The notes: a model not told the origin generated them from the letters alone. DNA of 64,000 nt from an uncultured Planctomycetia bacterium (GCA_964629655.1 CAZVQU010000001.1:356056-420055); one strand, 5' to 3'. Numbered from the stretch's first letter, positions 427 to 56,311 are shown. Numbers and translations: made by a program.

Positions 427-2325
427 TTAAACATTAATCTTTAAATTTTCTATAATCTCAAGAAGATCGGGAGTTAAAAAATTATGTTCTACGGGAATAA
501 TGTATTCCTCAGGCTTAGAAGATAAGAATTTATCTATATGCCCTAAAGCCTCCTGGGTAGCCCTAAAAGGAACTAACGTCTTTCCGTAAGCTTCACGCGC
601 GCCGTCCCAAACGTCGATTGAATCATGATAAAGAGAAAGCAACGGTAATCCCATAAGCCTTGCTTCATAGGTAGGAGTTGAGGGAAAATCCGTAATAACT
701 CTATCGGCCTGCCTTAAATACGTCATGAGATTACCATCCTTATAGAAAATATTCGGCGCTTTTAAATCCTTTAAAAAATTTAAAAGGGATTTAGCAATCC
801 ACCTTTCCGTTGGCAGAACTTTAATAATAAAATCATACTGGGGTAATTCGGCAAAATACCTGCATAAATTACACTGAAGATGAAAATACCAGCTCAAAGG
901 ATAGGTGCATCGGAGCCTTTGAACACCTTGCGCGACAGGAAGGTAACACACCTTCTCTCTATGTTTGTTTAAACTCCTGCTAGCGGCGGATTTTAAAAAC
1001 CTACGTGCTGTCTTTTTTGCTTCACCGCTATATTTGCCTATCCAAACTCTCGAGGCGATTACTTCGATCTTGCCCTGGTTATTCTCATTAAAACACTTAT
1101 CATAAAAGACAGCCTCCTCGATTGAGGGAGTAGCATAGACATCGGTCGGCTGTTCGGAGAAATACTGCATGTGGTATTCAGCTTCACCGCCACCATGCTC
1201 AACATGTATAGAAAATACTTGAGGTAACAATTTGGCTATAGTCATAACTCCATATTCAGAAAGAAATATCTTATACGCAGTGGCAACATAGTTTATCTTC
1301 TCTTTCTGAAGAATCTTCTCATACTTTTTCGCGGTTATACTTATAATCGGACATATTTTCTGTAAGAAATACAAAAAACGAGGGTTTAATATCCGGCTCA
1401 GATCAATACCGGATTCACGGCTTATCCATTCGCAAGGATGAAATTCCCGAATACAACTTTCTCCTATTTCCTCCCATAAGGCCGATGTTTTTATATCAAC
1501 ACAAAAATCTTCTACTTTCTCTTCTTTTCTCTTGCGAAAAAAAAGATTTTTTTTAGGACCATGTATTGTATGATATAAAATTTGATGGCCTGCTTTTGTG
1601 GCGTTTTTATACAGATTGCCCAGCCAATCTTCTCTTAAAATAAGGATTTTTTTAAGTTTGCCTTCCTTCGCGAGCTGTTTTCTTTTGAGATAAAATAATA
1701 GATATATTATTTGAATATGTGCTCTTTTTATAACTCTGCCTATAGCTTTAAAGGCTCTGCTGGGGAAACGTCTTAATTTAAGATGAATAAAATTAACTTT
1801 AGAATTTTCTGGATTAACCATAATAACAGAATACGGTATACCCTTCTCCTCGCAAATAATGGGCAATAAATAAGAAGTTAAGTCGCTTTTGTCCGTAAAA
1901 AGCGTTGAATCAAATCCAACTCGTGGATGAGATGCTGTCACTAAACATACCTTTGAGGGTTTTTCTTTATCTAATACTGACAAAATATTTCTGCTGAATA
2001 TTATAAATGAATCAATCATGGTTATGATAGAATAGCCGTATAATTTTACGAAATTAATTTTTTTATCAAGAGGGTCTGTTAATTTAGTTCTTAAATAATT
2101 ATCAAAAGCATTAAACCAAGGGAGCTTTCGTTGATCACATTCTCTAGCATACTTTTCTCTTTCAAACATATCATAGAAATCTTCGTAAATTTGGTAATCT
2201 ATCACTTCTTTATCCAGCTTGCGGCAGACAGCGGGATTCAAAGCGATAATCTTACCCTTTAAACTATGTACTAAAGAATTAAACTCCTCTACAAAATATA
2301 TGCTTTCGGCATTACTATTTATCAT
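427..2325 (-). CDS. Large polysaccharide-biosynthesis enzyme of unknown family; candidate glycosyl- or phosphotransferase
   Basis: 632-aa ORF at the distal end of the glycan locus. C-terminal half has a His/Asp-rich segment (HVEHGGGEAEYH...DVYATPS...VLPTERW) reminiscent of TagF/KpsC-type capsule transferases. No firm motif match. Confidence 0.4.
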   Translation of the reverse strand: MINSNAESIYFVEEFNSLVHSLKGKIIALNPAVCRKLDKEVIDYQIYEDFYDMFEREKYARECDQRKLPWFNAFDNYLRTKLTDPLDKKINFVKLYGYSIITMIDSFIIFSRNILSVLDKEKPSKVCLVTASHPRVGFDSTLFTDKSDLTSYLLPIICEEKGIPYSVIMVNPENSKVNFIHLKLRRFPSRAFKAIGRVIKRAHIQIIYLLFYLKRKQLAKEGKLKKILILREDWLGNLYKNATKAGHQILYHTIHGPKKNLFFRKRKEEKVEDFCVDIKTSALWEEIGESCIREFHPCEWISRESGIDLSRILNPRFLYFLQKICPIISITAKKYEKILQKEKINYVATAYKIFLSEYGVMTIAKLLPQVFSIHVEHGGGEAEYHMQYFSEQPTDVYATPSIEEAVFYDKCFNENNQGKIEVIASRVWIGKYSGEAKKTARRFLKSAASRSLNKHREKVCYLPVAQGVQRLRCTYPLSWYFHLQCNLCRYFAELPQYDFIIKVLPTERWIAKSLLNFLKDLKAPNIFYKDGNLMTYLRQADRVITDFPSTPTYEARLMGLPLLSLYHDSIDVWDGAREAYGKTLVPFRATQEALGHIDKFLSSKPEEYIIPVEHNFLTPDLLEIIENLKINV

Positions 2326-2337: not shown

Positions 2338-3534
2338 TTAGACTCTTACTTGCTCTTTTTGAAAATTTGTCCTAGAAATAACTTCCTCTAGATTAATATT
2401 ACCGGCTGGCTTCTCCTGTTCCCAAATAGGATTTTTTAGTTTCCATTGATTGTTTGCGTCTTTCTTCCACATATCTCCGCGAAAAGAATTAGCAACTTTC
2501 CAAAATTCATCTAGGCTAATACCGATATAATCACAAAAAGCTTTAATGTATCTATCGGCGCATTTGCCATCATACTCTTTTACCAAGGCCATAGCTTCCG
2601 GACGAGTAATCAGCCCAGCATGGATATCATAACAGGCATGGTCAGTGCATTGGCCAAAACCAAATTTTACGTATTTAAGCATCTGGTTTATCTGGACCAG
2701 TTCAGAATCCATCTGAGCATAGCGCACGTAGGTGCCGATATCATGCAGATCTAAATCCTCAGGTTTCATCTTTAATCCGCGCGCGATAGAAAACTTAGCA
2801 TTATTAGAATATAGCCACTCCTTAACATAATATTGAAGCCAGACTCCTCTTGTCCCTTTGGCTCTCAAACTATTATCATTGTAACCAAACAAATAAAGAT
2901 CTCTATGGTCAAACCCGTCTTCTATATACTCGGCAATTCCGCTGGCCAACGTGTTGAGTTTATTAGCTTTTAACGCATCATCATCAGTTCCTACTCCGGT
3001 ATTACTGGCACCCATAGTAAGGCCTGGATTCTCACCCTGAATAATTAAAGGAATATCAAATTTATCAGCTATGATATAGGTCGAAGACCATAAAGAATAT
3101 TCAGTAATCTTAACCGGGTTAAGATTACTGTAAAAATCACGTTTTATAAGCCTGTGCATCACTTTAGGGTTAGGCCGGATAGCAATTACATCAAACCCTA
3201 GCTGTTTTAAATTCTCTATGTTGTGCCGGCCGACTTCGGTAAGTCCTTCCGGCTCGCTGTTTACCAAAACAGGGCGCAAACCTAATTCGTCCCGGGCATA
3301 AAGCGCCTGGAACGTTGAGTCTTTTCCTCCGCTAACACCAATGGCGCAATTATAATTGCCCTTTGCTTTTGCCTTTGCCTTATCAGCTATATCTTGCAAT
3401 TGCCTTCTGCGACCGGACCAATCAATTTCATTCTTCAGCCGGTCTTGATATAAACAAGCTCCGCAGACGCCCTGATTATTAAAATACACTCCCGGCCTTG
3501 TGTCCGGCTGAACACATCGCTTACAATATCGCAT
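2338..3534 (-). CDS. N-acetyl sugar amidotransferase (PP-loop ATP pyrophosphatase, WbuX/PseA family)
   Basis: N-terminal Cys-rich knuckle (CKRCVQPDTRPGVYFNNQGVCGAC) followed by PP-loop motif GVSGGKDST. Architecture matches LPS acetamidino-forming amidotransferases. Confidence 0.7.
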   Translation of the reverse strand: MRYCKRCVQPDTRPGVYFNNQGVCGACLYQDRLKNEIDWSGRRRQLQDIADKAKAKAKGNYNCAIGVSGGKDSTFQALYARDELGLRPVLVNSEPEGLTEVGRHNIENLKQLGFDVIAIRPNPKVMHRLIKRDFYSNLNPVKITEYSLWSSTYIIADKFDIPLIIQGENPGLTMGASNTGVGTDDDALKANKLNTLASGIAEYIEDGFDHRDLYLFGYNDNSLRAKGTRGVWLQYYVKEWLYSNNAKFSIARGLKMKPEDLDLHDIGTYVRYAQMDSELVQINQMLKYVKFGFGQCTDHACYDIHAGLITRPEAMALVKEYDGKCADRYIKAFCDYIGISLDEFWKVANSFRGDMWKKDANNQWKLKNPIWEQEKPAGNINLEEVISRTNFQKEQVRV

Positions 3535-3552
3535 AATTAACCCTATAATCTA

Positions 3553-4935
3553 TTATGAAATTACTAATTTTTTTTCACCTAAATTGCGATTAACAATTCG
3601 CGGAGTTAAAGTTAAATATTCTTTTTCAATTAAATATTTAACAATCCCTAAAATCCGATAATCGCTGTATTTAACCCCTGTTACTTGTAAACCAAACGGC
3701 ATACTGTCCGGCCCTCTAAATACTGGCACATTCAGTGCGGGAGCTCCTAACAATGACCAGATTAAACCAGTATCGTCTACTTCTTTGTAGTTATTTCTCA
3801 AGGGAGCGATATTCGCCGTCGCCGGCGTAAGGATTAAATCATAGCTATCATAGTTATAATCAAACTCTTTTTGCATCCTTTCCTGCTCCTTAAGGGAATT
3901 ATGAAACTCTTGCACTGTAATTTTTCTACCATGCTCAACCATGCTATAGAGAGTTGAGCTAATTACATTTTTATCCGCACTTTCTCGTTTAAAATAATAA
4001 GCTAAACTCTTATCGTATAAAGTCGAATGTATTCTATGGCTGCCATCAAAGAAACCATCATCTTTTATATCTAGCACCTTGATCTCTTCTTTAGTCCTTA
4101 AAAAATCAACTAAACCTTCAAATTGATTTTTGACATAATCCTGATATCCCTGCCAAAGATATTCAGGTCTTAAAATCCCAATTTTTATGCTATTGTAGCC
4201 TACAATGGAACGTTTCTTTAGCATCGTATTGCTTATAGGGTAATTTTCACCGCGTACTCTTAAGATATCAAAAAGTAAAATTATATCGTCAATATTATTG
4301 GCAAAAAACCCAACATGATCTAACGTATTGGTAGTTTTTAAAACTCCCGTTCGGGGCATAGTTCCGTAAGAAGGTTTGCATCCAAAAATACCGGTATAAC
4401 TAGCCGGCCTTACGATGGAAGATCCTGTCTGTGTACCTAACGAGGCTATGGACAACCCCGCCGCGACCGCAACTGCTGAACCCATTGAGGATGTTCCCGG
4501 AGAGTAATCGTTATTGTGCGGGTTTAGGGTTATGCCCGGATGATGTACGGCTAACTCTGCGGTAACTGTCTTACCCGTAACTACTCCATCCTCCCAAATG
4601 GCTTTCTCCACAACTCTTGCATTATTCCCTGCTACATATCCTTTCCAGTAAGGACTTCCTTTCTCAGTCGTAAGTTCAACAGTATTAAAAACATCTTTAA
4701 CGCCAATGGGGACGCCATACAACTCTCCATGCGTTTTCCCTTCTTTAATTCTCTTAATAATCTGCTGCACCCTGTCAAAAACAACACTCTCATCAAACAC
4801 CTGAAAAGCCATTAACTCACTATCCATGGCTTTAATAAAAGATGTTAACTTTTTATAAAACTCCTCAAGATCAATCTCTCTTGTTTTAATTAGTTTTATA
4901 AACTGTTTAATGTTAATTTGGGTTAAATTAATCAC
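3553..4935 (-). CDS. Amidase-signature (GatA-like) amidase
   Basis: AS-family signature GVPIGVKDVF...GTSSMGSAVAVAAGL...GTQTGSSIVRPAS, with the Ser-cisSer-Lys triad context. 460 aa. Confidence 0.7.
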   Translation of the reverse strand: MINLTQINIKQFIKLIKTREIDLEEFYKKLTSFIKAMDSELMAFQVFDESVVFDRVQQIIKRIKEGKTHGELYGVPIGVKDVFNTVELTTEKGSPYWKGYVAGNNARVVEKAIWEDGVVTGKTVTAELAVHHPGITLNPHNNDYSPGTSSMGSAVAVAAGLSIASLGTQTGSSIVRPASYTGIFGCKPSYGTMPRTGVLKTTNTLDHVGFFANNIDDIILLFDILRVRGENYPISNTMLKKRSIVGYNSIKIGILRPEYLWQGYQDYVKNQFEGLVDFLRTKEEIKVLDIKDDGFFDGSHRIHSTLYDKSLAYYFKRESADKNVISSTLYSMVEHGRKITVQEFHNSLKEQERMQKEFDYNYDSYDLILTPATANIAPLRNNYKEVDDTGLIWSLLGAPALNVPVFRGPDSMPFGLQVTGVKYSDYRILGIVKYLIEKEYLTLTPRIVNRNLGEKKLVIS

Positions 4936-6118
4936 TCTTTCTCCCTTTTAAGCAATCCTTGTACTTAGGTAATTTTTTGGCGTTCCCTTCCCGATGAGCC
5001 TCAAGAATTTCGTGGAATTCTTCTTCGCTAAATCCGGTCATCTTAAGATATTTATCTAATTGGTCAGGCCTTTCTCCATCAAGTTTATATATTAGCTCCA
5101 TCGCTTCTTTTCTTGTTAATAACCCTTGCCGGATATCTTCGCTAGCATGGTCAGTGGTTCTACCATACCCTCTTTTAATAAACTTAGCATAATCATGAAC
5201 TCCTACCATTTTACATTCAACGCTTTTATATCTTTTGTATGTACCTTCCATATAATTCTGCCGCCAGTTATATTCTTTTATGAGAAACTCTACCTGCCTC
5301 ATCTCATCCCAATAATAATAATCACCAAGATGTATACCCTTCACGCCAACCTCCTCTATCTCTTTATCAGAAGGCAATTCATAAGCTGCCATATCTTTCT
5401 TAGTCAACCGGCTTCTTTCATTTATCATCTCGCCAGGATACTTCTTCGCGGAAATTTTTGTATAATAATGCTTATCATACGGAATAATATCATCATAAGT
5501 GGCTCGGCCATCCATTTCTGCAACCGACTCACCATAAATCATTAAGGGTATCTTTAGCTTAACCGCGAGCTGCAAGGGAAAAGCTCCGACACCAGCATGG
5601 CAATGCCAACACGCGTCACCTATTTGATATAGTGATTCTTTTGCAATTTTGTTTATTGCTTCTCTATTGGGAGTAAACATCATATGGTCTATGTTCAATC
5701 GCTCCAAAATATTCCAAAGATTGTATTTGCCCGTCTCACTATACCAATTATGGTTAAACGTTACAGCCAGAATATGCATGTTATATATTTTTTTTAACAT
5801 ATGAAGCTGAAAGCAGCTGTCTTTCCCCCCGCTGATAGGCACCATTATGTCGTAGGTTCCTCTTTTCCTTCCTTCCTCCTTCGCTTCTTCCAATATCTGC
5901 CGCAATTGCTCTTCTCTTTGGGCCCAATTAATATGCATTTTAGTCTCTGACGAACGGCACGCTGTACACATTCCCATTTCATCAAAGCCTACACCTTCTT
6001 GCGTATCAGGTAAACAACAACGCACGCAATACCTTATTCCTTTAAATGGCCCTCCACCATAATATTTTGTTTTTTCTTTACCGGTTTCTTTAGAAACTGT
6101 CATCTTTTGCCTCCTCAA
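4928..6118 (-). CDS. N-acetyl sugar amidotransferase paralog (PP-loop)
   Basis: Same architecture as 2338-3534: Cys knuckle (CVRCCLPDT...GMCTAC) plus PP-loop ISGGKDSCFQ. Divergent paralog. Confidence 0.7.
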   Translation of the reverse strand: MRRQKMTVSKETGKEKTKYYGGGPFKGIRYCVRCCLPDTQEGVGFDEMGMCTACRSSETKMHINWAQREEQLRQILEEAKEEGRKRGTYDIMVPISGGKDSCFQLHMLKKIYNMHILAVTFNHNWYSETGKYNLWNILERLNIDHMMFTPNREAINKIAKESLYQIGDACWHCHAGVGAFPLQLAVKLKIPLMIYGESVAEMDGRATYDDIIPYDKHYYTKISAKKYPGEMINERSRLTKKDMAAYELPSDKEIEEVGVKGIHLGDYYYWDEMRQVEFLIKEYNWRQNYMEGTYKRYKSVECKMVGVHDYAKFIKRGYGRTTDHASEDIRQGLLTRKEAMELIYKLDGERPDQLDKYLKMTGFSEEEFHEILEAHREGNAKKLPKYKDCLKGRKSD

Positions 6119-6128: not shown

Positions 6129-6671
6129 TTAACTCTTAAATTCCTTTGAAAGAAGCCCCATCATAATGATATTTTTCCATTTGCCGTCTCTTAATAGGCC
6201 TTCCCGCGCTATACCTTCTTGTTTAAATCCTAATTTTTTATAAAGGAAGCGCGCTTTAGCATTACTTTCATTTACGCTAAGATAAACTCGGTGTAAATTT
6301 AGCGTTTTAAAAGTATGCCGCAGGATCAGCTTTGTTGCTTCTGTTCCGTAACCTTTACCGTGGTGCAGGCGATCAATAATTATTTTGAATCCAGCTCTTC
6401 TATGCGTGTAATCAATGCGGGCGATTTCTAAATTGCCGATATGCCTATTGCTCTTTTTTTCGATTATCGCAAGCCAGATACAAGAAGAATCTCTCCACTT
6501 ACTCTGAGCAAATCGCTCCAGTTCATCTAAACTGTGAGGAAATTGGGCATGCTCAGTAAATTCATCATTTGCCACGTCATTAATCCATCTGAAATAATCT
6601 CCCCCTAAATCTTGTCTTTCAACGGGACGCAGGTAAATCTTTTTGCCTTCCAAAAATTTAACTTTTCGCAT
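6129..6671 (-). CDS. GNAT-family N-acetyltransferase
   Basis: GNAT core motifs (HRRAGFKI...HGKGYGTEA...LHRVYLSVNESNAKARFLYKKLGF). 180 aa. Confidence 0.65.
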   Translation of the reverse strand: MRKVKFLEGKKIYLRPVERQDLGGDYFRWINDVANDEFTEHAQFPHSLDELERFAQSKWRDSSCIWLAIIEKKSNRHIGNLEIARIDYTHRRAGFKIIIDRLHHGKGYGTEATKLILRHTFKTLNLHRVYLSVNESNAKARFLYKKLGFKQEGIAREGLLRDGKWKNIIMMGLLSKEFKS

Positions 6672-6704: not shown

Positions 6705-7916
6705 TTAAACATACCTCTGTCCTCTATCTCCGGGAAAAAAATAGATTTTTATACGTACAAGCATAGAATGTATAATTATACTTACAAATTTTATCGGCGC
6801 CGGTAAATATTTCCAGATAGTTTTTGCTATTTTACCATTTAAATTGCGGGAAACTTTTTTGAATTCCTCTAAGTTAGGGTAAGCTTTGAGCCATCTTTTA
6901 AATAATCCCCGATGCGGCAAGATAAATATAAAAAAGCCGCAGATTCGGTAAAAAAGATTATCGCCTGTCAGCCGGACATATCCGAATTCCTTCATTGATT
7001 TTCTAGTAATAAACTCGATCATGACAATTTCTTTAAAAGCTAATTCTTTCATCCAGCGTTTACGTACATTTTCTATTTGAAAAAATACTTCCTCAGGCTG
7101 AGGATATTTATTCTCAGCAGTCACATAAGCACTTTCGCCTTCCCAGTGCCTACCGGAAAAGGTGCATTTAAGAAGCGTCGGAGAAAAATCAATGCCTAAC
7201 CAGTCCGATAGGTTCCGCATTTGGTCCTCTAAGGATTCGTGCAGATCTTCGTTTCGGACTACCTTACATTTAGAATCCGGTTTGGAACTATATTTCTTCC
7301 AATTTTCAAATCCCTGCATCCAGTCTTCAATGTCAAAATTAAAATAATAGTCAGAAAGATAACCAAAGATCTTAGTCATCTGCCGCCAAGAGCCAGCCAT
7401 GCTTGCTCGAGGATCTCTTATTATCTGAAGAACGCCCGCCTTGGGAAAATCGGCTAAAGCTTCTGAAAGCTGGTAAGGCAGGTGTTCATGTACTACTAAA
7501 GCTCGGATATGAGAAATATCAATATTCATCGCAACAGAATATGCTTGGTGCAAAGCATAAAACACATTTATCCGGTTAATTCCCGAAAATTCTAAAGTCT
7601 TCTTAAAGCTAGAGTAAAATCTTTCCATTTCTTCTCGGCTATAAAACAATTTCTTTCTCGGTATCAGCAGTTTAAAGCGTTCCTCTATATAAATCCGCCA
7701 TATTGACAACATCTCTTGCGTATTCTTAACTTTATTGCAACCAGACATATTCCAATACCTATAAAAACTGAGCGTAGGCATAATCAATATCTGCTTATGA
7801 GAATCAAGCAAACTATGTAAATAATCTATCCCGCAATGACCAAAATTAGAAAGAAAATATATCGGTAAATTTCTTAGTTTTGACTCCATTGTCATATTAC
7901 TAGTTTTTAACTGCAT
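6705..7916 (-). CDS. Putative PAPS-dependent sulfotransferase
   Basis: RDPR 3'-phosphate-binding motif (QIIRDPRASMAG). C-terminal VVRNEDLHESLEDQMRNLSDWLGIDF matches the sulfotransferase V.YEDL....lgi pattern. P-loop-like N-terminal segment. Start overlaps the adjacent APS kinase. Confidence 0.55.
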   Translation of the reverse strand: MQLKTSNMTMESKLRNLPIYFLSNFGHCGIDYLHSLLDSHKQILIMPTLSFYRYWNMSGCNKVKNTQEMLSIWRIYIEERFKLLIPRKKLFYSREEMERFYSSFKKTLEFSGINRINVFYALHQAYSVAMNIDISHIRALVVHEHLPYQLSEALADFPKAGVLQIIRDPRASMAGSWRQMTKIFGYLSDYYFNFDIEDWMQGFENWKKYSSKPDSKCKVVRNEDLHESLEDQMRNLSDWLGIDFSPTLLKCTFSGRHWEGESAYVTAENKYPQPEEVFFQIENVRKRWMKELAFKEIVMIEFITRKSMKEFGYVRLTGDNLFYRICGFFIFILPHRGLFKRWLKAYPNLEEFKKVSRNLNGKIAKTIWKYLPAPIKFVSIIIHSMLVRIKIYFFPGDRGQRYV

Positions 7917-8490
7917 CTATCTCCTTCTCTCTGTCAAATACTGCATCTTTGGTCTTCTTGTGGATAAAGTTTAAAGAGGTTTCCAGCAAAGTCTGAAAAC
8001 ACTCATCAACGGTAATAGCGGAAGTATCTAATGCTAGCTCAACATGCTCAGATTCTTCATAAGCCTCAGTTACGCCAACAAAATTATCAAGCTCACCTGT
8101 AAATGCTCTCTTATACTGCCCCTTATAATCCCTTTTAGCGCAAATATCAACAGGGCATTTTAGATAAACCTCCATAAAGTTGCCAATATAATTACGAATT
8201 TTCTGACGAATATCTTTTTTGTGCGAAATGCTGGTGACAATAGCTATGTTTCCCGCTTTATTACTCTTTAAAGCCAATTTAGCCTTATAAAGATTCAAAG
8301 CGTCTCTATCCCTATTAATGTATCCGTAAACTTCTTTTAGCTTATGACGCACGTCTTCTCCGTCAAGAAACTCTACATTCTTAACACCTTCATTTATAAG
8401 GCCATTATAAAGGCTCTGGCCTAAAGTTGTTTTACCGGAAGCTGATAAACCGGTAATCCAAATAGTTACCGGTTTAAAAATAAAATTCAT
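7900..8490 (-). CDS. cysC: Adenylyl-sulfate (APS) kinase
   Basis: Walker A ITGLSASGKTTLG and APS-kinase length and fold signature. 196 aa. Confidence 0.8.
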   Translation of the reverse strand: MNFIFKPVTIWITGLSASGKTTLGQSLYNGLINEGVKNVEFLDGEDVRHKLKEVYGYINRDRDALNLYKAKLALKSNKAGNIAIVTSISHKKDIRQKIRNYIGNFMEVYLKCPVDICAKRDYKGQYKRAFTGELDNFVGVTEAYEESEHVELALDTSAITVDECFQTLLETSLNFIHKKTKDAVFDREKEIDAVKN

Positions 8491-9791
8491 TGGTCTAACT
8501 CCTTTAATTCTTTTAAATTGATAAATATTTTTTCAAACGCCATTACAACATCATCGATATCCTCCTTAGTGTGAGGATGTCTGCAAACCGGTATTAATAA
8601 TAGTTCTTTTTCGTACATTCTTTCAGCAACGGGACAAATACCTTTAGAATAGTTAACCTTTCCCTGATAGAAACTGCAGTTAAACGGACATCCTTGAACG
8701 CCATAGGCTATATTCTTCTGATAAAGAGGCTCAAGATATATAGGCCTCACGTAACCTAATCCGCAAGAAATTCCTTCCGCTTGTAATGCTTTCACAAAGC
8801 TGTTGCGCGATACACCAATTATTTCATCTTTAAACTTTATAGGATAGACAAAATATACATGAGTAAACTCTGCATCTTGTTTGGGTAAAATTAGCCCTTC
8901 AAAAATTGATAATTCCTTAGTCAAATATTCAGCTAATTCAATCCGATGGTTGTTTAAAGCATCGAGTCGCTTAAATTGTTCGATACTTACCGCGGCTTCC
9001 AGTTCAGTCATGCGATAATTGAACCCAACCATATTGCTAATATCATCCACCTTCATATCTTCAGTTATAACTTCTCCATGATTTCTTATAAGCTGCATTC
9101 TTAATGCTAACTCTTGACTATTAGTTATTGCTACGCCACCTTCGCCGGAAGTAATAGTTTTATGTTGATTAAAGCTAAATATACCTATATCCCCTAAGGT
9201 TCCTACAGGCTTACCTTTATATATTGCTCCCGGGGCTTGAGCGCAATCCTCAATTACTTTAAGCTTGTGTTTACGGGCAATTGCTATTATCTCATCCATC
9301 TTGGCTGGACAGCCGAATAAATGCACTATTATTATGGCCTTGGTTTGCGCTGTTATGCGTTCCTCAATTTTCTTAGGATCAATACAAAGCGAACCTTCTT
9401 CAATATCAACAAAAACAGGAATCGCGTTATTCATAATAATTGCTGTGGCCGAAGAACACATAGTATACGGGGTCACAATTACTTCATCGCCAGGGCCAAT
9501 TCCACATGCCCCAACCGCAACATGAAGCGCGGCAGTCGCGGAATTTAAAGCAACTGCGCATTTTACATCAAAATACTCTTTAATCATCGACTCAAGTTCT
9601 CTCAGCTGTTTTCCTCCCAGAAAATATTCTCCTGCCCTAGCAATAAAACCTGAAAGCATTCCCCCATCTAAAACCTCATTGACTCTTTTTTTCTCCTCTT
9701 GGCCAATTATAGCGTAATTGACAAAAGGCTTATTCCTTACCTTCTCTCCTCCTAAGATAGCAAGCTTACTCATTTTTTTCTTTCCTTCCAT
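8487..9791 (-). CDS. DegT/DnrJ/EryC1/StrS-family PLP-dependent sugar aminotransferase
   Basis: Family motifs (FNQHKTITSGEGG, catalytic Lys context). 434 aa. 4-nt overlap with cysC. Confidence 0.8.
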   Translation of the reverse strand: MEGKKKMSKLAILGGEKVRNKPFVNYAIIGQEEKKRVNEVLDGGMLSGFIARAGEYFLGGKQLRELESMIKEYFDVKCAVALNSATAALHVAVGACGIGPGDEVIVTPYTMCSSATAIIMNNAIPVFVDIEEGSLCIDPKKIEERITAQTKAIIIVHLFGCPAKMDEIIAIARKHKLKVIEDCAQAPGAIYKGKPVGTLGDIGIFSFNQHKTITSGEGGVAITNSQELALRMQLIRNHGEVITEDMKVDDISNMVGFNYRMTELEAAVSIEQFKRLDALNNHRIELAEYLTKELSIFEGLILPKQDAEFTHVYFVYPIKFKDEIIGVSRNSFVKALQAEGISCGLGYVRPIYLEPLYQKNIAYGVQGCPFNCSFYQGKVNYSKGICPVAERMYEKELLLIPVCRHPHTKEDIDDVVMAFEKIFINLKELKELDQ

Positions 9792-10750
9792 ATTCCTAAT
9801 TTTTCAAATATTTTCAAAGTCTCAATGGCTTTTTCTTTGTCCTTGACCTCTTTGTCCTTGCTTCGGGATAGCAAACAACTTAATTCATTTTCCATATAGT
9901 TTCTTTTAAAGTCTAAGGGAAGTTTTCGCGGCTTTAAAACTTTGACTTTTGGAAATCTAGAATCCCCGGCTTCATAATAATTGTAATCATATTCATTAAA
10001 GGGAAGACTTTTAATATCTATCCTTCCTTTGCTGCCTAAAATATCTATCTCAAAAATAGCATATCCGCCGGAGAGAAAGCTGCTTTGCTTATTCAACTCA
10101 AAACAATACGCGTTAAAGTTTTCAAAACTTAAAGAAAAGTCACCGTGAAAATCACCATTTGCGCCGGGTTCAATTTTAATCGGTTTAACCTTTTTAGGGG
10201 TGCCAAAATAAAAGAGAAAAAGATTCACTAAATGTGAACCGGCGTTAATGACTCCTCCGGAAAAATATGCCGTACATTTTTGGACATCTCCTACCAGTTC
10301 AGACAAGTGCTCTTTCACATAAAGGTAAAAACCGTCAAACCTTCGCTGATAATTAGTAATAAAGTGAATCTTATGTTGAGAAAAAAGTTCTAATTGCTTA
10401 TTAGCATTTCCCAGATTATCGCTAAAAGGTTTCTCTACCCAAGCCAACTTAACAGAGTTATAACTGGAAATTTTTCTTATAATATCTAAATTATACTTTA
10501 CGCCGGCGCATAGGCTCACGATATCCGGATGAAAATTCTCCATGGCCTCATCAACGGTATCAAAAGCATCCTTCACAGACCAAAAATCAACTGCTTGCTT
10601 TAATGCTTGTTTATTGGTATCACATATCGCAATACTTTTAATTTTTTTACTCTTTTTATACGCCCCAAGATGTGTATTAACCCACTCCTTTTCCTTAACC
10701 TGATCGAAGCTGCTACCGACTCTTCCTGCTCCAATAATAAGTGCTTTCAT
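9770..10750 (-). CDS. Gfo/Idh/MocA-family NAD(P)-dependent oxidoreductase
   Basis: N-terminal Rossmann MKALIIGAGRVGSS. Length and layout typical of sugar oxidoreductases. Confidence 0.55.
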   Translation of the reverse strand: MKALIIGAGRVGSSFDQVKEKEWVNTHLGAYKKSKKIKSIAICDTNKQALKQAVDFWSVKDAFDTVDEAMENFHPDIVSLCAGVKYNLDIIRKISSYNSVKLAWVEKPFSDNLGNANKQLELFSQHKIHFITNYQRRFDGFYLYVKEHLSELVGDVQKCTAYFSGGVINAGSHLVNLFLFYFGTPKKVKPIKIEPGANGDFHGDFSLSFENFNAYCFELNKQSSFLSGGYAIFEIDILGSKGRIDIKSLPFNEYDYNYYEAGDSRFPKVKVLKPRKLPLDFKRNYMENELSCLLSRSKDKEVKDKEKAIETLKIFEKLGIWKERKK

Positions 10751-10763: not shown

Positions 10764-11522
10764 TTAATACCTAATTGGTTTCTGGGTTATGTTTTGATTA
10801 ATCACTGGGATATCTGGATTTTCCTTTATCAATTGCATAATATCCCAACTGCAGAAATTATTTCTTTTAGGGTAAAGTGAATCAAAAATTTTTTTTATCA
10901 ATTCAAAATCTTGCTCCGTATCAAGCGTCCATCTATGCTCGGGAAAATTGAGCCATGAGGGAGCTTTCACTGAACCCAACTTGTACCTACCCTCCTCCTC
11001 GTAAAAATATAATGAAACATGCTCACGCACAGCCGGATCACTAATATTCTCCGCTGTCCATTTTAAATCGCTGAATCTAAAAACCTTACAGTCAAGGCCA
11101 CGGGGAAAAGTCATAGGTATGCAATTAGAAACAAAATCATATTCATCTGATAAGAATTTTTCTATTGTCCTATCCACCCAATAAACATCAATTAAGGGGC
11201 AATCTCCAGTAAGCTCAACAATAATGTCAGAACCAGCTTTTTGGTGGCATCTAACAACTCTATCCAGAATATCATCTTCACTGCCTTGAAAACAACCCAC
11301 CCCTTCTTTTGATGCCAATTCACAGATCGCCTTATCTTTAATGCTTGTCGTTGTAGCAATAATAATCTCCCGAATAAAAGATGATTTCTTCAATCGCCGG
11401 ACCATATGGGCCAAAACAGGTATGTCACATACAGATAACAGTACCTTTCCCGGCAAACGGGAAGAAGACATCCTAGCTTCAATTGAAGCAACAATTTTTT
11501 CTTTCATTATATAACACTCCAT
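10764..11522 (-). CDS. CMP-nonulosonic acid synthetase-like cytidylyltransferase (NeuA/PseF/SpsF family)
   Basis: ARMSSSRLPGKVL...IIIATT cytidylyltransferase motifs. 252 aa. Sits next to a NeuB-like synthase. Confidence 0.65.
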   Translation of the reverse strand: MECYIMKEKIVASIEARMSSSRLPGKVLLSVCDIPVLAHMVRRLKKSSFIREIIIATTTSIKDKAICELASKEGVGCFQGSEDDILDRVVRCHQKAGSDIIVELTGDCPLIDVYWVDRTIEKFLSDEYDFVSNCIPMTFPRGLDCKVFRFSDLKWTAENISDPAVREHVSLYFYEEEGRYKLGSVKAPSWLNFPEHRWTLDTEQDFELIKKIFDSLYPKRNNFCSWDIMQLIKENPDIPVINQNITQKPIRY

Positions 11523-12327: not shown

Positions 12328-13284
12328 TTAACTGTTACCTTTAGCATCAAGCGCCATCCTCAATGTCTTAATACCGTCATCAATCGGACATATTGTTTTC
12401 TTTCCTTTTCTTACACACTCAATGAAATGCAGCAACTCACAACAATATGTTTTTTCCATAACATTTTTTCCCACATTTAACAACACCGACCACTTCTTAT
12501 CTCTTTTATTATAAAATTTGAGTCCTCCTCTATAAAAATCGTAAAAAAGGGTACCTTTTTCTCCTACTATCTCAATGTATCTCTTGGAAGGCTCCTGAAC
12601 ATAGCTTAAATTGACCTCAGCCAATATTCCGCTTAGAAATTCGATATGAATAAGGGCCATATCTTCTGCACTAATGCCAAGATATTTTCCTTTGCTTATT
12701 GTAGAATTAATCTTCTTATATTTACCAAATAACCATAAAAGCGTATCCAGTTCATGGCTTGATGTTAAAACAACACCTCCTCCTAAGTCGCTACGTGAAG
12801 CATAGCTTTTTCTGTAATCTTCCCAAGGATGCCATGCCGGCAGATAAGAGGTAAATTGAAACCTGGCAAAATAAATATCTCCTAAAAAACCGGTAAGAAT
12901 AAGGTTCTTTATTCTACATATTACGGGATGAAAACGAAGATTATAAGCGATAAAGGCCGTTAGTTTTCTTTTTTTGATAACTGCCTGCAATTTCTTAATA
13001 TTTGTTAAGGAACAAGAAAGAGGTTTTTCTATAAAAACATGGCATCCCCGGCGGGCCGCTTCCAGCGCTGTGGGAATATGCAAACTCGTCGGATTACATA
13101 TTAATGCAGCATCAGGCTGTTCCCGGTAGGCCTTCACTGGATTTTGAAAGCACCTCACGGGAATATTGAAAGGTTTGGCCCCCTTTCTCGTACGGAGCGC
13201 GATTATATCTTTATATCCTAAATTGAGAAGATTCCTGGCATGCCTCTGTCCGATTGAACCCAAACCTATAATTAAAAATTTCAT
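12328..13284 (-). CDS. Gfo/Idh/MocA-family oxidoreductase
   Basis: MKFLIIGLGSIGQRH Rossmann motif and C-terminal Gfo/Idh/MocA alpha/beta domain. 318 aa. Confidence 0.55.
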   Translation of the reverse strand: MKFLIIGLGSIGQRHARNLLNLGYKDIIALRTRKGAKPFNIPVRCFQNPVKAYREQPDAALICNPTSLHIPTALEAARRGCHVFIEKPLSCSLTNIKKLQAVIKKRKLTAFIAYNLRFHPVICRIKNLILTGFLGDIYFARFQFTSYLPAWHPWEDYRKSYASRSDLGGGVVLTSSHELDTLLWLFGKYKKINSTISKGKYLGISAEDMALIHIEFLSGILAEVNLSYVQEPSKRYIEIVGEKGTLFYDFYRGGLKFYNKRDKKWSVLLNVGKNVMEKTYCCELLHFIECVRKGKKTICPIDDGIKTLRMALDAKGNS

Positions 13285-13994
13285 TATGCTCTGCTTGTTA
13301 ATAGCACGGTTTCCATTTTTCTCGCATAATAAGACAATTCTCTTAAATCTTTTGGATCCATGCTCCCAGCATGATCCGGGCCATGCATTTTTTTATCTAG
13401 TGTAAAATGCTTCTCTATAATACGCGCTCCGTTGCCTACGGCAACAAGCGCCGCTTCTACTCCAACCGTATGATCGCTAAAACCGGAATATTTTTTAAAA
13501 TCTACACGTCCAAAATCCAAATCTTGAGGCAATGTAGGATATTTAGAAACACAATAAAGAAAATCAACCTTCCCTCTTGTCTGAATATTAGGAAAACTTT
13601 CTTCTCGGTACATTCCCAATGACACAATGATATCCTTTCCAGTTTTCGCTATAGCGTCTACTAAACCCTTTTCATAGATACTGCGGCTTGCAATTTTATA
13701 TCTCTTTACGCCTACATCTTCGGCCCATTTGATTCTACCAGTATCAAAGACTGATACGAAAAACTCAATCCCAGCTTCATCACAGATCTGTTTGAGTAAT
13801 TTCAACTGCGCTCTGTTAATCTGAGACCATTTAGCCTCTTTGTACCACTGAAAATCTTTTGGAAAGATTGAGTCCACATCATAAAGCTGAAACTTTGCGA
13901 TATCGGCTCCATTCTCTTTTGCCGCATGGATAAGCTCCTTGGCTGTGTTCATATCCCCGTTATGGTTTTGTCCGATTTCTGCAATTATCAGCAT
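13284..13994 (-). CDS. Nonulosonic acid synthase (NeuB/PseI/LegI/SpsE family) lacking the C-terminal SAF domain
   Basis: MLIIAEIGQNHNGDMNTAKELIHAAKENGADIAKFQ is the canonical NeuB N-terminus. Only 236 aa, so the TIM barrel is present but no SAF/antifreeze-like domain. Confidence 0.7.
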   Translation of the reverse strand: MLIIAEIGQNHNGDMNTAKELIHAAKENGADIAKFQLYDVDSIFPKDFQWYKEAKWSQINRAQLKLLKQICDEAGIEFFVSVFDTGRIKWAEDVGVKRYKIASRSIYEKGLVDAIAKTGKDIIVSLGMYREESFPNIQTRGKVDFLYCVSKYPTLPQDLDFGRVDFKKYSGFSDHTVGVEAALVAVGNGARIIEKHFTLDKKMHGPDHAGSMDPKDLRELSYYARKMETVLLTSRA

Positions 13995-17276: not shown

Positions 17277-18368
17277 TCAATTGTTGCGCGCTGGAAGCAA
17301 AGTTTTTAAACAAATCTTCGCTAAATATTTAGGGTTAAATAAAATACTTGGCGACATAGCGCACTCAAATGTACAATAACAGCCATTTTTAACCCTCTTC
17401 CGTACAGTCTCGGCTTTAGCCGATGTCCAAAGTTTGGGTAAATCATAACCAAAATCTCGAATATTACCGAGACAGCAATCTCCAAGCACCTCACAAGGGA
17501 ACACTTTACCATCATCATATAGTATGCCCATTAATGAGCCTGCTTGACAAGGCAAAGTCCCATGACCGTGTTCTAAGACTTCCTTGACGCTTTTGTAAAC
17601 ATAGTAATCTTTTGAAGAAATAAATTTACTCATAAAAAAATTGAAATATTTAAGTTTTTTACTATTTACCACGCTCATCCTTAATTCAGTTAATTGCTTA
17701 TATTTGTTTAATGAAACTTCTTTTACCGTAGGATCTTTAGGATTACCGCGCACAAAAGCTATATTCACATTATCGGTTAGTCCTGATCCTATAAATTCAC
17801 TAAAGGTATCCTGCAAATAATCTTGATTGGTTTTGTTACAAGTCATGGAAATTGAAAGCCCCAAATTCTTAAATTGCTTACGTAATGGCTGTAACATTTC
17901 TAAGGTTTGAAGCGCTTTTGCGTAAGAACCTTTTCCTCTAATTTTATCATTAATTTCTTGAGGCCCGTCAATTGAAAGATAAATAAATAGATTAGTATCC
18001 GGAAAATCTGACAACATTTTGGGTATAAGCGCGTACATTCTTTCTTTGTAAAATCCATTAGTTGATATTGTGATAATATGCGCTCTTGTATTCTTAGCAA
18101 ATAGACTATATATCTCGCCGATATCCTCACGAATAAAAGGTTCTCCGCCAGTTAAAGATAAAGCAAGTAGACGCGGCAGAGATTTAGTAATTTTTTCTAT
18201 TTCATCAAGTGTCAACTCGTAATTATGTTCTGAATCCAGTTCTTTCCAGTAAAAACAGTGGCTACATCTCAGATTGCACCGGGAAGTTACAAAAAAGGTT
18301 AACTGAATTGGCGGGCCGTCTTTTCTAAATATCCGGCTCGCACAAGAAACCTTATCTCGCAGATTCAT
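17277..18368 (-). CDS. Radical SAM enzyme with C-terminal SPASM-like auxiliary cluster domain
   Basis: CNLRCSHCFY CxxxCxxC motif. C-terminal Cys cluster (PCQAG...PCEVLGDCCLGN...CYCTFEC). 363 aa. Confidence 0.7.
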   Translation of the reverse strand: MNLRDKVSCASRIFRKDGPPIQLTFFVTSRCNLRCSHCFYWKELDSEHNYELTLDEIEKITKSLPRLLALSLTGGEPFIREDIGEIYSLFAKNTRAHIITISTNGFYKERMYALIPKMLSDFPDTNLFIYLSIDGPQEINDKIRGKGSYAKALQTLEMLQPLRKQFKNLGLSISMTCNKTNQDYLQDTFSEFIGSGLTDNVNIAFVRGNPKDPTVKEVSLNKYKQLTELRMSVVNSKKLKYFNFFMSKFISSKDYYVYKSVKEVLEHGHGTLPCQAGSLMGILYDDGKVFPCEVLGDCCLGNIRDFGYDLPKLWTSAKAETVRKRVKNGCYCTFECAMSPSILFNPKYLAKICLKTLLPARNN

Positions 18369-38539: not shown

Positions 38540-38642
38540 TGAACATATTTTACCCCTTACCTTATATATGTCAATATGTTTTATAAACTGTTGGGGTAAA
38601 GACTCAAGGCCTCTAAGTCTTTGTGCAAGAAGAAGTAAGATA

Positions 38643-54496: not shown

Positions 54497-54497
54497 C

Positions 54498-56293: not shown

Positions 56294-56311
56294 TCTCCAA
56301 TACAGGATTAA

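What the first reader, a model, noticed from the sequence alone, without database searches (positions are those of the whole stretch)
2338..6118. Two PP-loop N-acetyl-sugar amidotransferase paralogs flanking an amidase-signature enzyme, with no HisH/HisF-type partners
Described acetamidino-sugar systems (WbuX with WbuY/WbuZ, PseA) pair the PP-loop amidotransferase with imidazole-glycerol-phosphate-synthase-like glutaminase and cyclase subunits. Here neither is present. Instead a GatA-type amidase (Ser-cisSer-Lys family) is wedged between two divergent PP-loop paralogs. All three genes are translationally coupled, with 7-18 nt gaps or overlaps. The arrangement suggests an uncharacterised ammonia-delivery solution: an amidase generates NH3 for two amidotransferases. 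The two paralogs could serve two amidination steps, for example on the nonulosonic acid and on a uronic or amino sugar made elsewhere in the locus.
Basis: partly seen in the sequence, partly recalled or inferred. Interest (0 to 1): 0.75.

Follow-up and report, generated by a model that had tools for sequence, protein, structure and literature searches.

The report
Amidase-coupled acetamidino-sugar amidotransferase module
In a giant surface-sugar gene cluster, an amidase sits fused-or-adjacent (here adjacent) to one particular subtype of the enzyme that turns sugar N-acetyl groups into positively charged acetamidino groups, and comparison with about 170 other genomes indicates the amidase is that enzyme's dedicated ammonia supplier, a pairing that is widespread but apparently undescribed.

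Summary
On the minus strand lie WbuX-A (4928-6103; true start ATG 6103), an amidase-signature (AS) enzyme (3553-4935) and WbuX-B (2338-3534). Both PP-loop proteins pass the TIGR03573 cutoff. No HisH/HisF-like gene occurs in the 64 kb; the only class-I glutaminase is TrpG in a trp operon.

The amidase is specifically the partner of WbuX-A:
- In 81 of 82 loci from more than 20 bacterial and archaeal phyla, a WbuX-A ortholog lies directly beside an amidase of this clade (median gap 3 nt, 29 of 76 overlapping).
- About 60 protein clusters are natural WbuX-A::amidase fusions. An AlphaFold model of one has pLDDT 89 and pTM 0.83.
- The two genes co-evolve (r = 0.85, against about 0.5 for neighbouring DegT).
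- HisH/HisF are nearly absent from these loci. Where present, they flank a different NASAT type.

WbuX-B belongs to a stand-alone subfamily: 0 of 83 loci have an amidase or HisH/HisF nearby. "One amidase feeding two paralogs" is therefore not supported.

Best reading: a two-subunit amidotransferase in which an AS-type amidase replaces the HisH/HisF-type donor. I found no literature on it. It is a new variant of a known kind. No activity has been tested.

The parts
4928..6103 (-). WbuX-A: PP-loop N-acetyl-sugar amidotransferase (NASAT) of the amidase-coupled subfamily, 391 aa from ATG 6103.
   Evidence: TIGR03573 327.2 bits against a 203.2 cutoff. Matches the solved NASAT 8WEX at E = 1e-39. PP-loop SGGKDS and the N-terminal CxxC...CxxC motif are visible in the sequence. 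Orthologs at 47-64% identity lie beside the amidase in 81 of 82 loci. Start codon read.
3553..4935 (-). Amidase-signature (Ser-cisSer-Lys) enzyme, 460 aa: the inferred ammonia-generating subunit for WbuX-A.
   Evidence: PF01425 at 196.9 bits. gatA model 186 bits against a 481 cutoff. K80, S149 and S173 align with malonamidase E2 K62, S131 and S155 and are invariant in 40 clade members. The GTG start overlaps the WbuX-A stop by 8 nt.
2338..3534 (-). WbuX-B: second NASAT paralog, a member of a stand-alone subfamily typical of nonulosonic-acid clusters.
   Evidence: TIGR03573 326.8 bits. 29% identical to WbuX-A. Homologs at 60-70% identity are numerous. 0 of 83 such loci have an amidase or HisH/HisF within 10 kb; 28 of 30 well-flanked loci carry NeuB and 28 of 30 carry CTP_transf_3.
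6129..6671 (-). GNAT N-acetyltransferase: the likely maker of the N-acetyl group that WbuX-A amidinates.
   Evidence: PF13302 at 75 bits; weak PseH match at 50.9 bits. A homolog lies directly upstream of WbuX-A in 32 of 61 loci and within 5 kb in 46 of 61. GNAT::WbuX-A fusion proteins exist, such as P0343.
8487..9791 (-). DegT/PseC/LegC-type sugar aminotransferase, a conserved neighbour of the pair.
   Evidence: PF01041 at 329 bits; PseC model 260 bits. Within 5 kb of the pair in 54 of 61 loci.
9770..10750 (-). GFO/IDH/MocA-family oxidoreductase, a frequent neighbour.
   Evidence: PF01408. Within 5 kb in 41 of 61 loci.
10764..11522 (-). CTP_transf_3 cytidylyltransferase (CMP-sugar synthetase type), a frequent neighbour.
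   Evidence: PF02348 at 77.9 bits. Present in 29 of 61 loci. Same gene order in L004 and L006.
13284..13994 (-). NeuB-family nonulosonic acid synthase (short form, 236 aa), which marks the pathway context.
   Evidence: TIGR03569 at 189 bits, below its 399.65 cutoff; profile positions 2-258 of 329 are matched. A NeuB homolog lies within 10 kb of the pair in 45 of 61 loci.
427..2325 (-). 632-aa protein with no family match, 12 nt downstream of WbuX-B. Its role is unknown and its membership in the module is uncertain.
   Evidence: No Pfam or NCBIfam hit. tblastn homologs lie just downstream of the amidase in L006 (130 bits) and near it in L032 and L014.

Best explanation
WbuX-A (4928-6103) and the amidase (3553-4935) form one two-subunit amidotransferase.

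Proposed mechanism:
1. The amidase-signature subunit hydrolyses a small primary amide. L-glutamine is most likely, by analogy with GatA; asparagine or a similar carboxy-amide is possible. This releases ammonia.
2. The ammonia passes to the PP-loop subunit.
3. The PP-loop subunit uses ATP to adenylate the carbonyl oxygen of a sugar N-acetyl group, and ammonia displaces AMP to give an acetamidino group.

The N-acetyl group is probably the one installed by the adjacent GNAT (6129-6671) on an amine introduced by the DegT aminotransferase (8487-9791), on a nonulosonic-acid precursor or its CMP-activated form. In this scheme the amidase does the job that the HisH/HisF-like pair WbuY/WbuZ does for classical WbuX/PseA/WbpG enzymes.

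WbuX-B (2338-3534) is a separate, stand-alone NASAT. It probably amidinates another N-acetyl position without a dedicated donor, using free ammonia or an unlinked source.

Shown here: family memberships, intact catalytic motifs, conserved adjacency and coupling, fusions, co-evolution, near-complete separation from HisH/HisF, and a confident two-domain fusion model.

Inferred: ammonia transfer itself, the identity of the amide donor, the sugar substrate, and the independence of WbuX-B.
For: 1. Adjacency. In 80 of 82 loci anchored on amidase-clade members, a WbuX-A ortholog (47-64% identity) lies directly beside the amidase on the same strand. ORF analysis found a WbuX-A fragment at the cut edge of one further contig, giving 81 of 82. 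The loci come from Verrucomicrobiota, Chloroflexota, Omnitrophota, Bacteroidota, Patescibacteria, Planctomycetota, Cyanobacteria, Actinomycetota, Campylobacterota, alpha-, beta- and gamma-Proteobacteria, Nanoarchaeota, Halobacteriales and others.

2. Coupling. In 76 loci the distance from the WbuX-A stop to the amidase start has a median of 3 nt; 29 overlap, and none exceeds 50 nt. In the window the overlap is 8 nt, with a Shine-Dalgarno sequence.

3. Fusions. L009, L046, L051 and L062 encode single 855-869-aa WbuX-A::amidase proteins with no stops or Ns. A database search with one of them found about 60 clusters of full-length fusions (797-922 aa) and 8 longer forms, including one from the isolate Solidesulfovibrio alcoholivorans.

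4. Reverse direction. WbuX-A-type proteins found through their WbuX part alone also have an amidase directly downstream.

5. Equivalence to HisH/HisF. Only 2 of 82 loci have HisH/HisF nearby, and there they flank a different NASAT of 27-34% identity. In L174, whose amidase is 63% identical to the window's, the order is third-type NASAT, HisH, HisF, WbuX-A, amidase.

6. Co-evolution. The Mantel correlation of WbuX-A against amidase distances is r = 0.85 (p = 0.001). Against neighbouring DegT it is 0.52 and 0.50. The partial correlation controlling for DegT is 0.80.

7. Catalytic competence. K80, S149 and S173 are invariant, as are T168 and (in at least 90% of members) R176. These align with malonamidase E2 K62, S131, S155, T150 and R158.

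8. Structure. The AlphaFold2 model of a natural fusion has pLDDT 89.2 and pTM 0.83 over 875 residues. That is higher than I would expect for two freely hinged ~400-aa domains, which is my inference. The amidase domain superposes on malonamidase E2, AtzE and GatA.

9. Pathway logic. GNAT::WbuX-A fusions and conserved GNAT/DegT neighbours fit the sequence amination, N-acetylation, amidination.
Against: - No biochemical evidence exists for any member: neither hydrolysis of glutamine or another amide, nor ammonia transfer, nor the product.
- The closest solved relative is malonamidase E2, not GatA. The donor could therefore be something other than glutamine.
- I could not compare the substrate pocket with the glutamine-binding residues of GatA.
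- The structure tool returns no coordinates. An ammonia tunnel, and the distance between the two active sites, could not be examined.
- Gene adjacency and fusion also occur between enzymes of consecutive pathway steps, as the GNAT::WbuX-A fusions themselves show. Fusion alone therefore does not prove a glutaminase/synthetase relationship.
- The 82 loci were chosen as the best matches to the amidase clade, so more divergent clade members without a NASAT neighbour could exist.
Confidence: 0.72

Rival explanations
1. One reading: the single amidase supplies ammonia to both flanking NASAT paralogs, WbuX-A and WbuX-B.
For: In the window all three genes are contiguous; the gap between the amidase and WbuX-B is only 18 nt. 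WbuX-B has no other obvious donor within the 64 kb.
Against: The WbuX-B subfamily never sits next to an amidase: 0 of 83 loci, of which 30 have at least 3 kb on both sides. No amidase-anchored locus carries a B-type NASAT: 0 of 61. All fusions and the co-evolution signal involve WbuX-A only. The triple arrangement is confined to this organism.
Confidence: 0.12
2. The amidase is a pathway enzyme rather than an ammonia donor. It would hydrolyse an amide on the sugar intermediate, for example by removing an N-acyl group or a carboxamide, in a step next to the WbuX-A reaction. The fusion would then reflect consecutive steps.
For: Consecutive-step fusions do occur in this very system, namely GNAT::WbuX-A, APS-kinase::WbuX-A and formyltransferase::WbuX-A. 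The nearest solved relative, malonamidase E2, is a catabolic amidase and not a glutaminase subunit.
Against: Adjacency of 81 in 82 with 1:1 stoichiometry and a tight junction is much stricter than for any other neighbour; GNAT is directly upstream in 32 of 61 and DegT is within 5 kb in 54 of 61. HisH/HisF are almost never nearby: 2 of 82 loci, and there beside another NASAT. That pattern is what replacement of the donor predicts. An amide hydrolase acting on N-acetyl or acetamidino groups would oppose the NASAT reaction.
Confidence: 0.12
3. The amidase is the housekeeping GatA subunit of tRNA-dependent GatCAB and lies in the cluster by chance.
For: GatA is the top NCBIfam model by E-value, and some sources label homologs as 'GatA family amidase'.
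Against: It scores 186 bits against the gatA cutoff of 481. The window has no gatB or gatC. The clade is fixed next to NASAT genes across phyla and is fused to them.
Confidence: 0.01
4. WbuX-A does not make an amidine. Its subfamily-specific Cys motif (C-x2-C-H plus a later Cys/His) would bind a metal or Fe-S centre for different chemistry, such as sulfur insertion as in TtuA-type PP-loop enzymes. The amidase would then serve another role.
For: The motif is invariant in WbuX-A orthologs and fusions and absent from WbuX-B, from HisH/HisF-linked NASATs and from the solved Legionella NASAT. TtuA is the next PDB relative of the family (PMC10607449).
Against: WbuX-A clears the NASAT model cutoff as well as WbuX-B does. 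The profile alignment to TtuA covers only the PP-loop region, so the Cys correspondence is unproven. No sulfur-carrier or cysteine desulfurase gene was noticed beside the pair.
Confidence: 0.04

Closest known systems
WbuX/WbuY/WbuZ-type acetamidino-sugar systems (E. coli O145 WbuXYZ, P. aeruginosa WbpG with HisH2/HisF2, C. jejuni PseA/PtmG)
   Same: The same PP-loop NASAT family, TIGR03573, with PP-loop and Zn tetracysteine. The same presumed reaction, N-acetyl to acetamidino (PMC10607449; PMC13317340). The same kind of glycan cluster context.
   Different: The ammonia donor is an amidase-signature enzyme rather than a class-I glutaminase (HisH-like) with a HisF-like barrel. The NASAT is a distinct subfamily, about 35% identical or less to HisH/HisF-linked copies, with an extra Cys/His motif. 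That WbuY/WbuZ are the usual partners is from my own knowledge of the TIGRFAM descriptions. I confirmed it here only for L063, L073, L173 and L174.
GatCAB tRNA-dependent amidotransferase (GatA subunit)
   Same: An amidase-signature protein acting as the ammonia-generating subunit of an ATP-dependent amidotransferase. The fold of the amidase domain matches GatA with a target TM-score of 0.78-0.80.
   Different: The protein is not a GatA ortholog: 186 bits against a 481 cutoff. Its partner is a PP-loop adenylating enzyme acting on a sugar, not GatB acting on tRNA. No GatC-like gene was identified.
Glutamine-dependent PP-loop amidotransferases (NAD+ synthetase NadE, GMP synthetase GuaA, asparagine synthetase B)
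   Same: The overall design: a PP-loop ATP pyrophosphatase that adenylates an oxygen, plus a fused or associated glutaminase that delivers ammonia. This is established knowledge, not tested here.
   Different: Those enzymes use nitrilase-type, class-I (triad) or Ntn glutaminase domains. Here the recruited hydrolase is amidase-signature type, which would be a further glutaminase class for PP-loop enzymes.
Malonamidase E2 (Bradyrhizobium japonicum; PDB 1OCL and related entries)
   Same: The closest solved relative by sequence (E = 1e-40) and by fold (target TM-score 0.88, 32% identity). The catalytic and substrate-contact residues probed by its mutants (K62, S131, T150, S155, R158) are conserved.
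   Different: Malonamidase E2 is a free-standing catabolic enzyme with no amidotransferase partner. Its physiological substrate, malonamate, has no known link to glycan synthesis.

Membership tests
N-acetyl sugar amidotransferase (NASAT; TIGR03573 WbuX/PseA/WbpG) | Score above the curated family HMM cutoff | tested here: met
   WbuX-A 327.2 bits and WbuX-B 326.8 bits against a cutoff of 203.2. Both match the solved NASAT 8WEX, at E = 1e-39 and 8.5e-36.
N-acetyl sugar amidotransferase (NASAT; TIGR03573 WbuX/PseA/WbpG) | PP-loop SGGxDS motif and N-terminal Zn-binding tetracysteine (PMC10607449) | tested here: met
   SGGKDS is present in both. CxxC...CxxC is present in both: A has YCVRCC...MCTAC and B has YCKRC...VCGAC.
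N-acetyl sugar amidotransferase (NASAT; TIGR03573 WbuX/PseA/WbpG) | Catalyses the ATP-dependent conversion of a sugar N-acetyl group to acetamidino | not testable with these tools
   Needs an enzyme assay or glycan mass spectrometry.
Classical WbuX-WbuY-WbuZ three-gene system | HisH-like glutaminase and HisF-like protein encoded beside the NASAT | tested here: not met
   No HisH/HisF-like ORF in the 64 kb; the only GATase is TrpG in the trp operon. Among amidase-linked loci, 2 of 82 have HisH/HisF nearby, and there they sit beside another NASAT.
Amidase signature family (PF01425) | Pfam HMM above the gathering score | tested here: met
   196.9 bits against 27.
Amidase signature family (PF01425) | Ser-cisSer-Lys catalytic triad | tested here: met
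   K80, S149 and S173 align with malonamidase E2 K62, S131 and S155. They are invariant in 40 clade members and in 58 fusions.
GatA (TIGR00132), glutaminase subunit of GatCAB | Equivalog HMM score above the cutoff | tested here: not met
   185.9 bits against 481.1.
GatA (TIGR00132), glutaminase subunit of GatCAB | Genomic or physical association with GatB and GatC | tested here: not met
   No gatB or gatC in the window or in the examined loci. The partner gene is a NASAT.
Glutamine-dependent amidotransferase (functional class) | Hydrolysis of glutamine by one subunit, stimulated by the synthetase subunit | not testable with these tools
   Needs biochemistry. The GatA glutamine-pocket comparison could not be made because no GatA sequence was at hand.
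Glutamine-dependent amidotransferase (functional class) | Physical complex with an intramolecular ammonia path between the two active sites | tested here: inconclusive
   Natural fusions exist and one models as a single confident body with pTM 0.83. No coordinates are returned, so no tunnel or distance could be measured.

The most novel reading that the evidence does not exclude
WbuX-A plus amidase is a previously unrecognised, phylogenetically very widespread class of ammonia-channelling amidotransferase. It would be the second known use of an amidase-signature enzyme as a glutaminase subunit, after GatCAB, and a further glutaminase type recruited by PP-loop enzymes. The subfamily-specific C-x2-C-H...C...H motif of WbuX-A would form an extra metal site tied to docking or ammonia entry. 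It would define how many uncultured bacteria and archaea (Omnitrophota, Patescibacteria, Nanoarchaeota and others) put positive charge on their surface nonulosonic acids.
Probability: 0.55. Interest if true: 0.72.

Novelty: new variant of a known kind. Interest (0 to 1): 0.66.

Why it matters
Acetamidino groups give bacterial surface and flagellar sugars a positive charge. They affect phage recognition, autoagglutination and immune recognition in organisms such as Campylobacter, Legionella and Pseudomonas.

The textbook picture has the PP-loop amidotransferase fed by a HisH/HisF-like pair. This analysis shows a second, equally organised solution: an amidase-signature enzyme, encoded next to or fused with a dedicated NASAT subfamily. 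It occurs in hundreds of species-level genomes across more than 20 phyla, and current annotation leaves it as a generic "amidase".

Practical consequences:
- It gives a specific, testable function to a large orphan amidase clade.
- It extends the short list of glutaminase types used by amidotransferases.
- It offers natural single-chain fusions as convenient material for structural and enzymological work.
- It separates three NASAT types (HisH/HisF-linked, amidase-linked and stand-alone), which should improve prediction of glycan chemistry from genomes.

Tried and rejected
- **HisH-like hit in the window.** A tblastn hit at 58133-58474 looked as if it might overturn the "no HisH/HisF" claim. 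It is TrpG within a complete trp operon, so I rejected it as a partner.
- **TtuA Fe-S site.** I tried to map the WbuX-A-specific Cys motif onto the TtuA Fe-S site with a subfamily profile against the PDB. The alignment covers only the PP-loop region, so the result is inconclusive.
- **GatA pocket comparison.** I looked for a genuine GatA in the 174 fetched loci to compare glutamine-pocket residues. None is present.
- **Plasmid annotation.** A search of annotated plasmids, to see how curators name the pair, gave no match at E = 1e-40.
- **Source genome.** The exact-protein look-up of PrfA failed. The organism is inferred only from a TrpB cluster at 90% identity or more that contains an Omnitrophota MAG protein.
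- **Promoter and terminator scans.** Over 1-14 kb they were no better than shuffled sequence: 54 against 45 ± 7.6, and 13 against 10.6 ± 3.6. They were uninformative.
- **Representative-library search.** It showed that the fusions collapse to a few clusters at 50% identity. I do not claim many independent fusion events.
- **Literature.** Eight literature look-ups (six full-text searches and two papers read for terms) combining amidase, GatA, acetamidino, acetimidoyl, PseA, PtmG, pseudaminic, legionaminic and NASAT found no paper linking an AS amidase to this reaction. Subscription-only papers are not covered.

Full report
**What is in the window**

The 64-kb window has about 37% G+C, and essentially all its genes lie on the minus strand. 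From about 52 to 64 kb it carries housekeeping genes: rho, prfA, prmC, murA, a trpG-D-C-F-B-A operon and an M16 peptidase. From about 51 kb down to position 1 it is a single very large glycan-biosynthesis cluster. That cluster holds sugar dehydratases and epimerases, aminotransferases, glycosyltransferases, an ABC exporter, radical SAM enzymes, sulfate-activation genes and a NeuB-type synthase. A TrpB cluster at 90% identity or more contains a protein from a Candidatus Omnitrophota MAG, so the source is probably a member of that phylum. The exact record could not be retrieved.

**Checking the observation**

The three ORFs are real.
- ORF 2338-3534 (WbuX-B) and ORF 4928-6118 (WbuX-A) score 326.8 and 327.2 bits on TIGR03573, whose cutoff is 203.2.
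- They are 29% identical to each other.
- Both match the one solved NASAT, Legionella 8WEX.
- Both carry the PP-loop SGGKDS and the N-terminal tetracysteine motif described for that structure (PMC10607449).
- ORF 3553-4935 is a PF01425 amidase at 196.9 bits. Its K80, S149 and S173 align with the Lys-cisSer-Ser triad of malonamidase E2. It is not GatA: 186 bits against a cutoff of 481.

Reading the junctions gave three results:
- The amidase GTG follows GGGAGA and overlaps the WbuX-A stop codon by 8 nt.
- WbuX-B starts 18 nt after the amidase stop.
- The real WbuX-A start is almost certainly the ATG at 6103, which follows AGGAGG. That gives 391 aa, as in public gene calls.

The claim of no HisH/HisF holds for the window:
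- A six-frame search with E. coli HisH/HisF, and with NASAT-linked HisH/HisF homologs from other loci, finds only TrpG.
- No ORF of at least 120 aa is a GATase, HisF-like or AsnB-like protein.

**The amidase and WbuX-A are a conserved unit**

The amidase has thousands of homologs. A tight group shares 59-71% identity with it, and a very broad group shares about 40%. The first three contexts I inspected already showed the same order: cytidylyltransferase, GFO/IDH/MocA oxidoreductase, DegT aminotransferase, GNAT, an unannotated ~350-390-aa protein, then the amidase. One of these was a Firmicutes flagellin-glycosylation island between flagellin and FliD.

A scan of species-representative genomes with an alignment of the clade returned at least 572 related loci. 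I analysed the best 80 together with two of the context loci already fetched.
- In 80 of the 82 loci, a WbuX-A ortholog (47-64% identity) lies directly next to the amidase on the same strand: upstream in 78 and downstream in 2. The NASAT is thus more conserved than the amidase itself, which shares 34-44%.
- The two exceptions are contigs cut off just upstream of the amidase. One of them still shows a WbuX-A fragment at its edge, giving 81 of 82.
- The loci come from more than 20 phyla, including Nanoarchaeota and Halobacteriales.
- The junction is tight: median gap 3 nt, 29 of 76 overlapping (most often by 4 or 8 nt), and none above 50 nt.

**Fusions**

In four loci the two genes form one uninterrupted reading frame of 855-869 codons. 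These are L009 (Dehalococcoidia), L046 (a Desulfarculia chromosome), L051 and L062 (the isolate Thalassospira sp. MCCC 1A01148). Each has a ~50-residue linker with a conserved ILPFxQQ(L/I)(I/L)E(R/K)L motif.

A database search with one fusion returned about 60 clusters (at 90% identity) of full-length fusions of 797-922 aa, and 8 longer forms of 1123-1183 aa. One comes from Solidesulfovibrio alcoholivorans. Where named at all, these are labelled only "N-acetyl sugar amidotransferase". At 50% identity the fusions collapse to a few representatives, so they probably stem from one or a few fusion events.

An AlphaFold2 model of the S. alcoholivorans fusion, built with 58 homologs, has mean pLDDT 89.2 and pTM 0.83. 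Only the linker is of low confidence. I take the high pTM as indirect evidence for a defined domain-domain arrangement. The tool gives no coordinates, so I could not look for a tunnel.

The amidase domain superposes best on malonamidase E2 (target TM 0.88), then AtzE and GatA.

**Other fusions fit the pathway logic**

The same search found several other architectures:
- GNAT::WbuX-A fusions (551-592 aa)
- an APS-kinase::WbuX-A fusion
- a formyltransferase::WbuX fusion

One GNAT::WbuX-A gene is again followed directly by an amidase.

In 61 loci with at least 4 kb upstream of the pair, the neighbours are as follows:

| Neighbour | Loci out of 61 |
|---|---|
| DegT homolog within 5 kb | 54 |
| GNAT within 5 kb | 46 |
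| GNAT directly upstream of WbuX-A | 32 |
| GFO/IDH/MocA oxidoreductase within 5 kb | 41 |
| NeuB within 10 kb | 45 |
| CTP_transf_3 cytidylyltransferase within 10 kb | 29 |

This fits a sequence of amination, N-acetylation and amidination on a nonulosonic-acid pathway intermediate. The exact substrate is inferred, not shown.

**Relation to HisH/HisF**

HisH/HisF homologs occur in only 2 of the 82 loci, and there they flank a different, distant NASAT of 27-34% identity. Two further loci are especially informative.
- In L174, whose amidase is 63% identical to the window's, the order is third-type NASAT, HisH-like, HisF-like, WbuX-A ortholog (66% identity), amidase.
- L173 likewise has WbuX-A plus amidase next to a separate NASAT plus HisH plus HisF.

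Each NASAT therefore keeps its own partner. That is what one expects if the amidase and the HisH/HisF pair are alternative, non-interchangeable donors.

A mirror-tree test on 58 loci gives r = 0.85 between WbuX-A and amidase distances (Mantel p = 0.001). Either gene against the neighbouring DegT gives 0.52 and 0.50, and the partial correlation is 0.80.

**WbuX-B is a different case**

WbuX-B has a large family of homologs at 60-70% identity. Three inspected contexts, plus 80 loci from a metagenome scan, give these results:
- 0 of 83 have an amidase within 10 kb.
- 0 of 83 have HisH/HisF within 10 kb.
- Of the 30 loci with at least 3 kb on both sides, 28 carry NeuB and 28 carry a CTP_transf_3 cytidylyltransferase.

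Conversely, none of 61 amidase-anchored loci carries a B-type NASAT. The relative L174 lacks one as well. The A-amidase-B arrangement is therefore specific to this organism (L001-L003). It is best read as two independent amidination functions that happen to be neighbours, not as one amidase serving two enzymes. That the amidase also helps WbuX-B cannot be excluded, but nothing supports it.

**Mechanism proposed**

By analogy with GatCAB and with the glutamine-dependent PP-loop enzymes NadE, GuaA and AsnB (established knowledge), the amidase hydrolyses a small amide and hands the ammonia to WbuX-A. WbuX-A adenylates the acetamido oxygen and forms the amidine.

The donor is most likely glutamine. 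However, the nearest solved relative is malonamidase E2. Conservation of the residue aligned with its carboxylate-binding Arg158 (R176 here) says only that the substrate probably bears a carboxylate near the amide. I could not compare the pocket with that of GatA.

**Novelty**

Eight literature look-ups (six full-text searches and two papers read for terms) found nothing connecting an amidase-signature enzyme with NASAT or acetamidino formation.
- The structural paper on LpNASAT does not discuss the ammonia source beyond "ligation of ammonia".
- No NCBIfam model reaches its cutoff on the amidase.
- Public names are generic.

I therefore rate this a new variant of a known kind: an amidotransferase of familiar overall design with an unexpected glutaminase-type partner. 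The evidence is entirely comparative and predictive. No activity has been measured.

**Verdict**

- Observation: confirmed.
- Interpretation: partly supported. It is right about the amidase replacing HisH/HisF and wrong about the amidase serving both paralogs.
- Confidence that the amidase is the dedicated ammonia-supplying partner of WbuX-A: about 0.72.
- Interest: 0.66.

Noticed in passing
window 4928-6103 (-), WbuX-A residues ~162-169 and ~297-304; also alignments A3, A4, A5: Amidase-coupled NASATs carry an invariant GD(A/S)C-W-(H/Q)-C-H motif and a later E-C-x-M-x-G-x-H-D motif. Both are absent from WbuX-B, from HisH/HisF-linked NASATs and from the solved Legionella NASAT. This may be a second metal site specific to this subfamily. 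The spacing recalls the 3-Cys Fe-S site of TtuA-type PP-loop enzymes (my recollection), but the profile alignment to TtuA covers only the PP-loop.
   Followed up: partly
L173:6001-7836; proteins P0325, P0339, P0347 (600-650 aa); P0253-P0258, P0275, P0283 (1123-1183 aa): Some WbuX-A proteins have an extra N-terminal partial PP-loop domain: residues 8-184 of the L173 protein resemble WbuX-A 73-267 at 24% identity. Some fusions with the amidase are about 300 aa longer than the standard ~870 aa. Pfam recognises only the amidase part.
   Followed up: partly
proteins P0335, P0343, P0348, P0350, P0353, P0357, P0360, P0338; locus L172: Other domain fusions to WbuX-A exist: GNAT::WbuX-A (six clusters), APS-kinase::WbuX-A and formyltransferase::WbuX. 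In the window an APS kinase and a sulfotransferase are inserted between DegT and the GNAT, so the link with an APS-kinase-like domain recurs.
   Followed up: partly
window 6705-7916, 7900-8490, 38643-40532, 40572-41300 (all -): The cluster holds a sulfotransferase, three APS-kinase domains (one fused to ATP sulfurylase, one to a DUF2061 membrane segment) and an ATP sulfurylase. This suggests that the glycan is sulfated.
   Followed up: no
window 37991-38680 (-): A NusG-family paralog (229 aa, PF02357) sits next to the sulfate-activation genes and upstream of about 36 kb of same-strand glycan genes. This recalls RfaH/LoaP-type operon-specific antiterminators.
   Followed up: no
window 13284-13994 (-): The NeuB-type synthase ORF is only 236 aa. 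It matches profile positions 2-258 of 329 and scores 189 bits against a cutoff of 399.65, so it lacks the usual C-terminal SAF domain. The next gene starts at its stop codon.
   Followed up: no
window 427-2325 (-); L006, L032, L014: A 632-aa protein with no Pfam or NCBIfam match follows WbuX-B after 12 nt. tblastn homologs lie just downstream of the amidase in L006 and near it in L032 and L014. Unannotated proteins of 600-670 aa also occur beside NASATs in L089, L090 and L172. This may be a transferase for the modified sugar.
   Followed up: partly
window 17277-18368 and 28925-30097 (-): Two radical SAM enzymes, one with SPASM-type matches, lie within the glycan cluster. L001 shows a B12-binding radical SAM enzyme just beyond the window start. 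These point to unusual sugar modifications.
   Followed up: no
L174:4306-9374 and L173:6001-11859: Single clusters carry both donor systems side by side: NASAT plus HisH plus HisF, and WbuX-A plus amidase. L173 also has an AsnB-type amidotransferase immediately after them.
   Followed up: yes
window 53708-58708 (-): A complete trpG-D-C-F-B-A operon lies about 2 kb beyond the end of the glycan cluster. Its TrpG is the only class-I glutamine amidotransferase in the window and produced the only HisH-like hit.
   Followed up: yes
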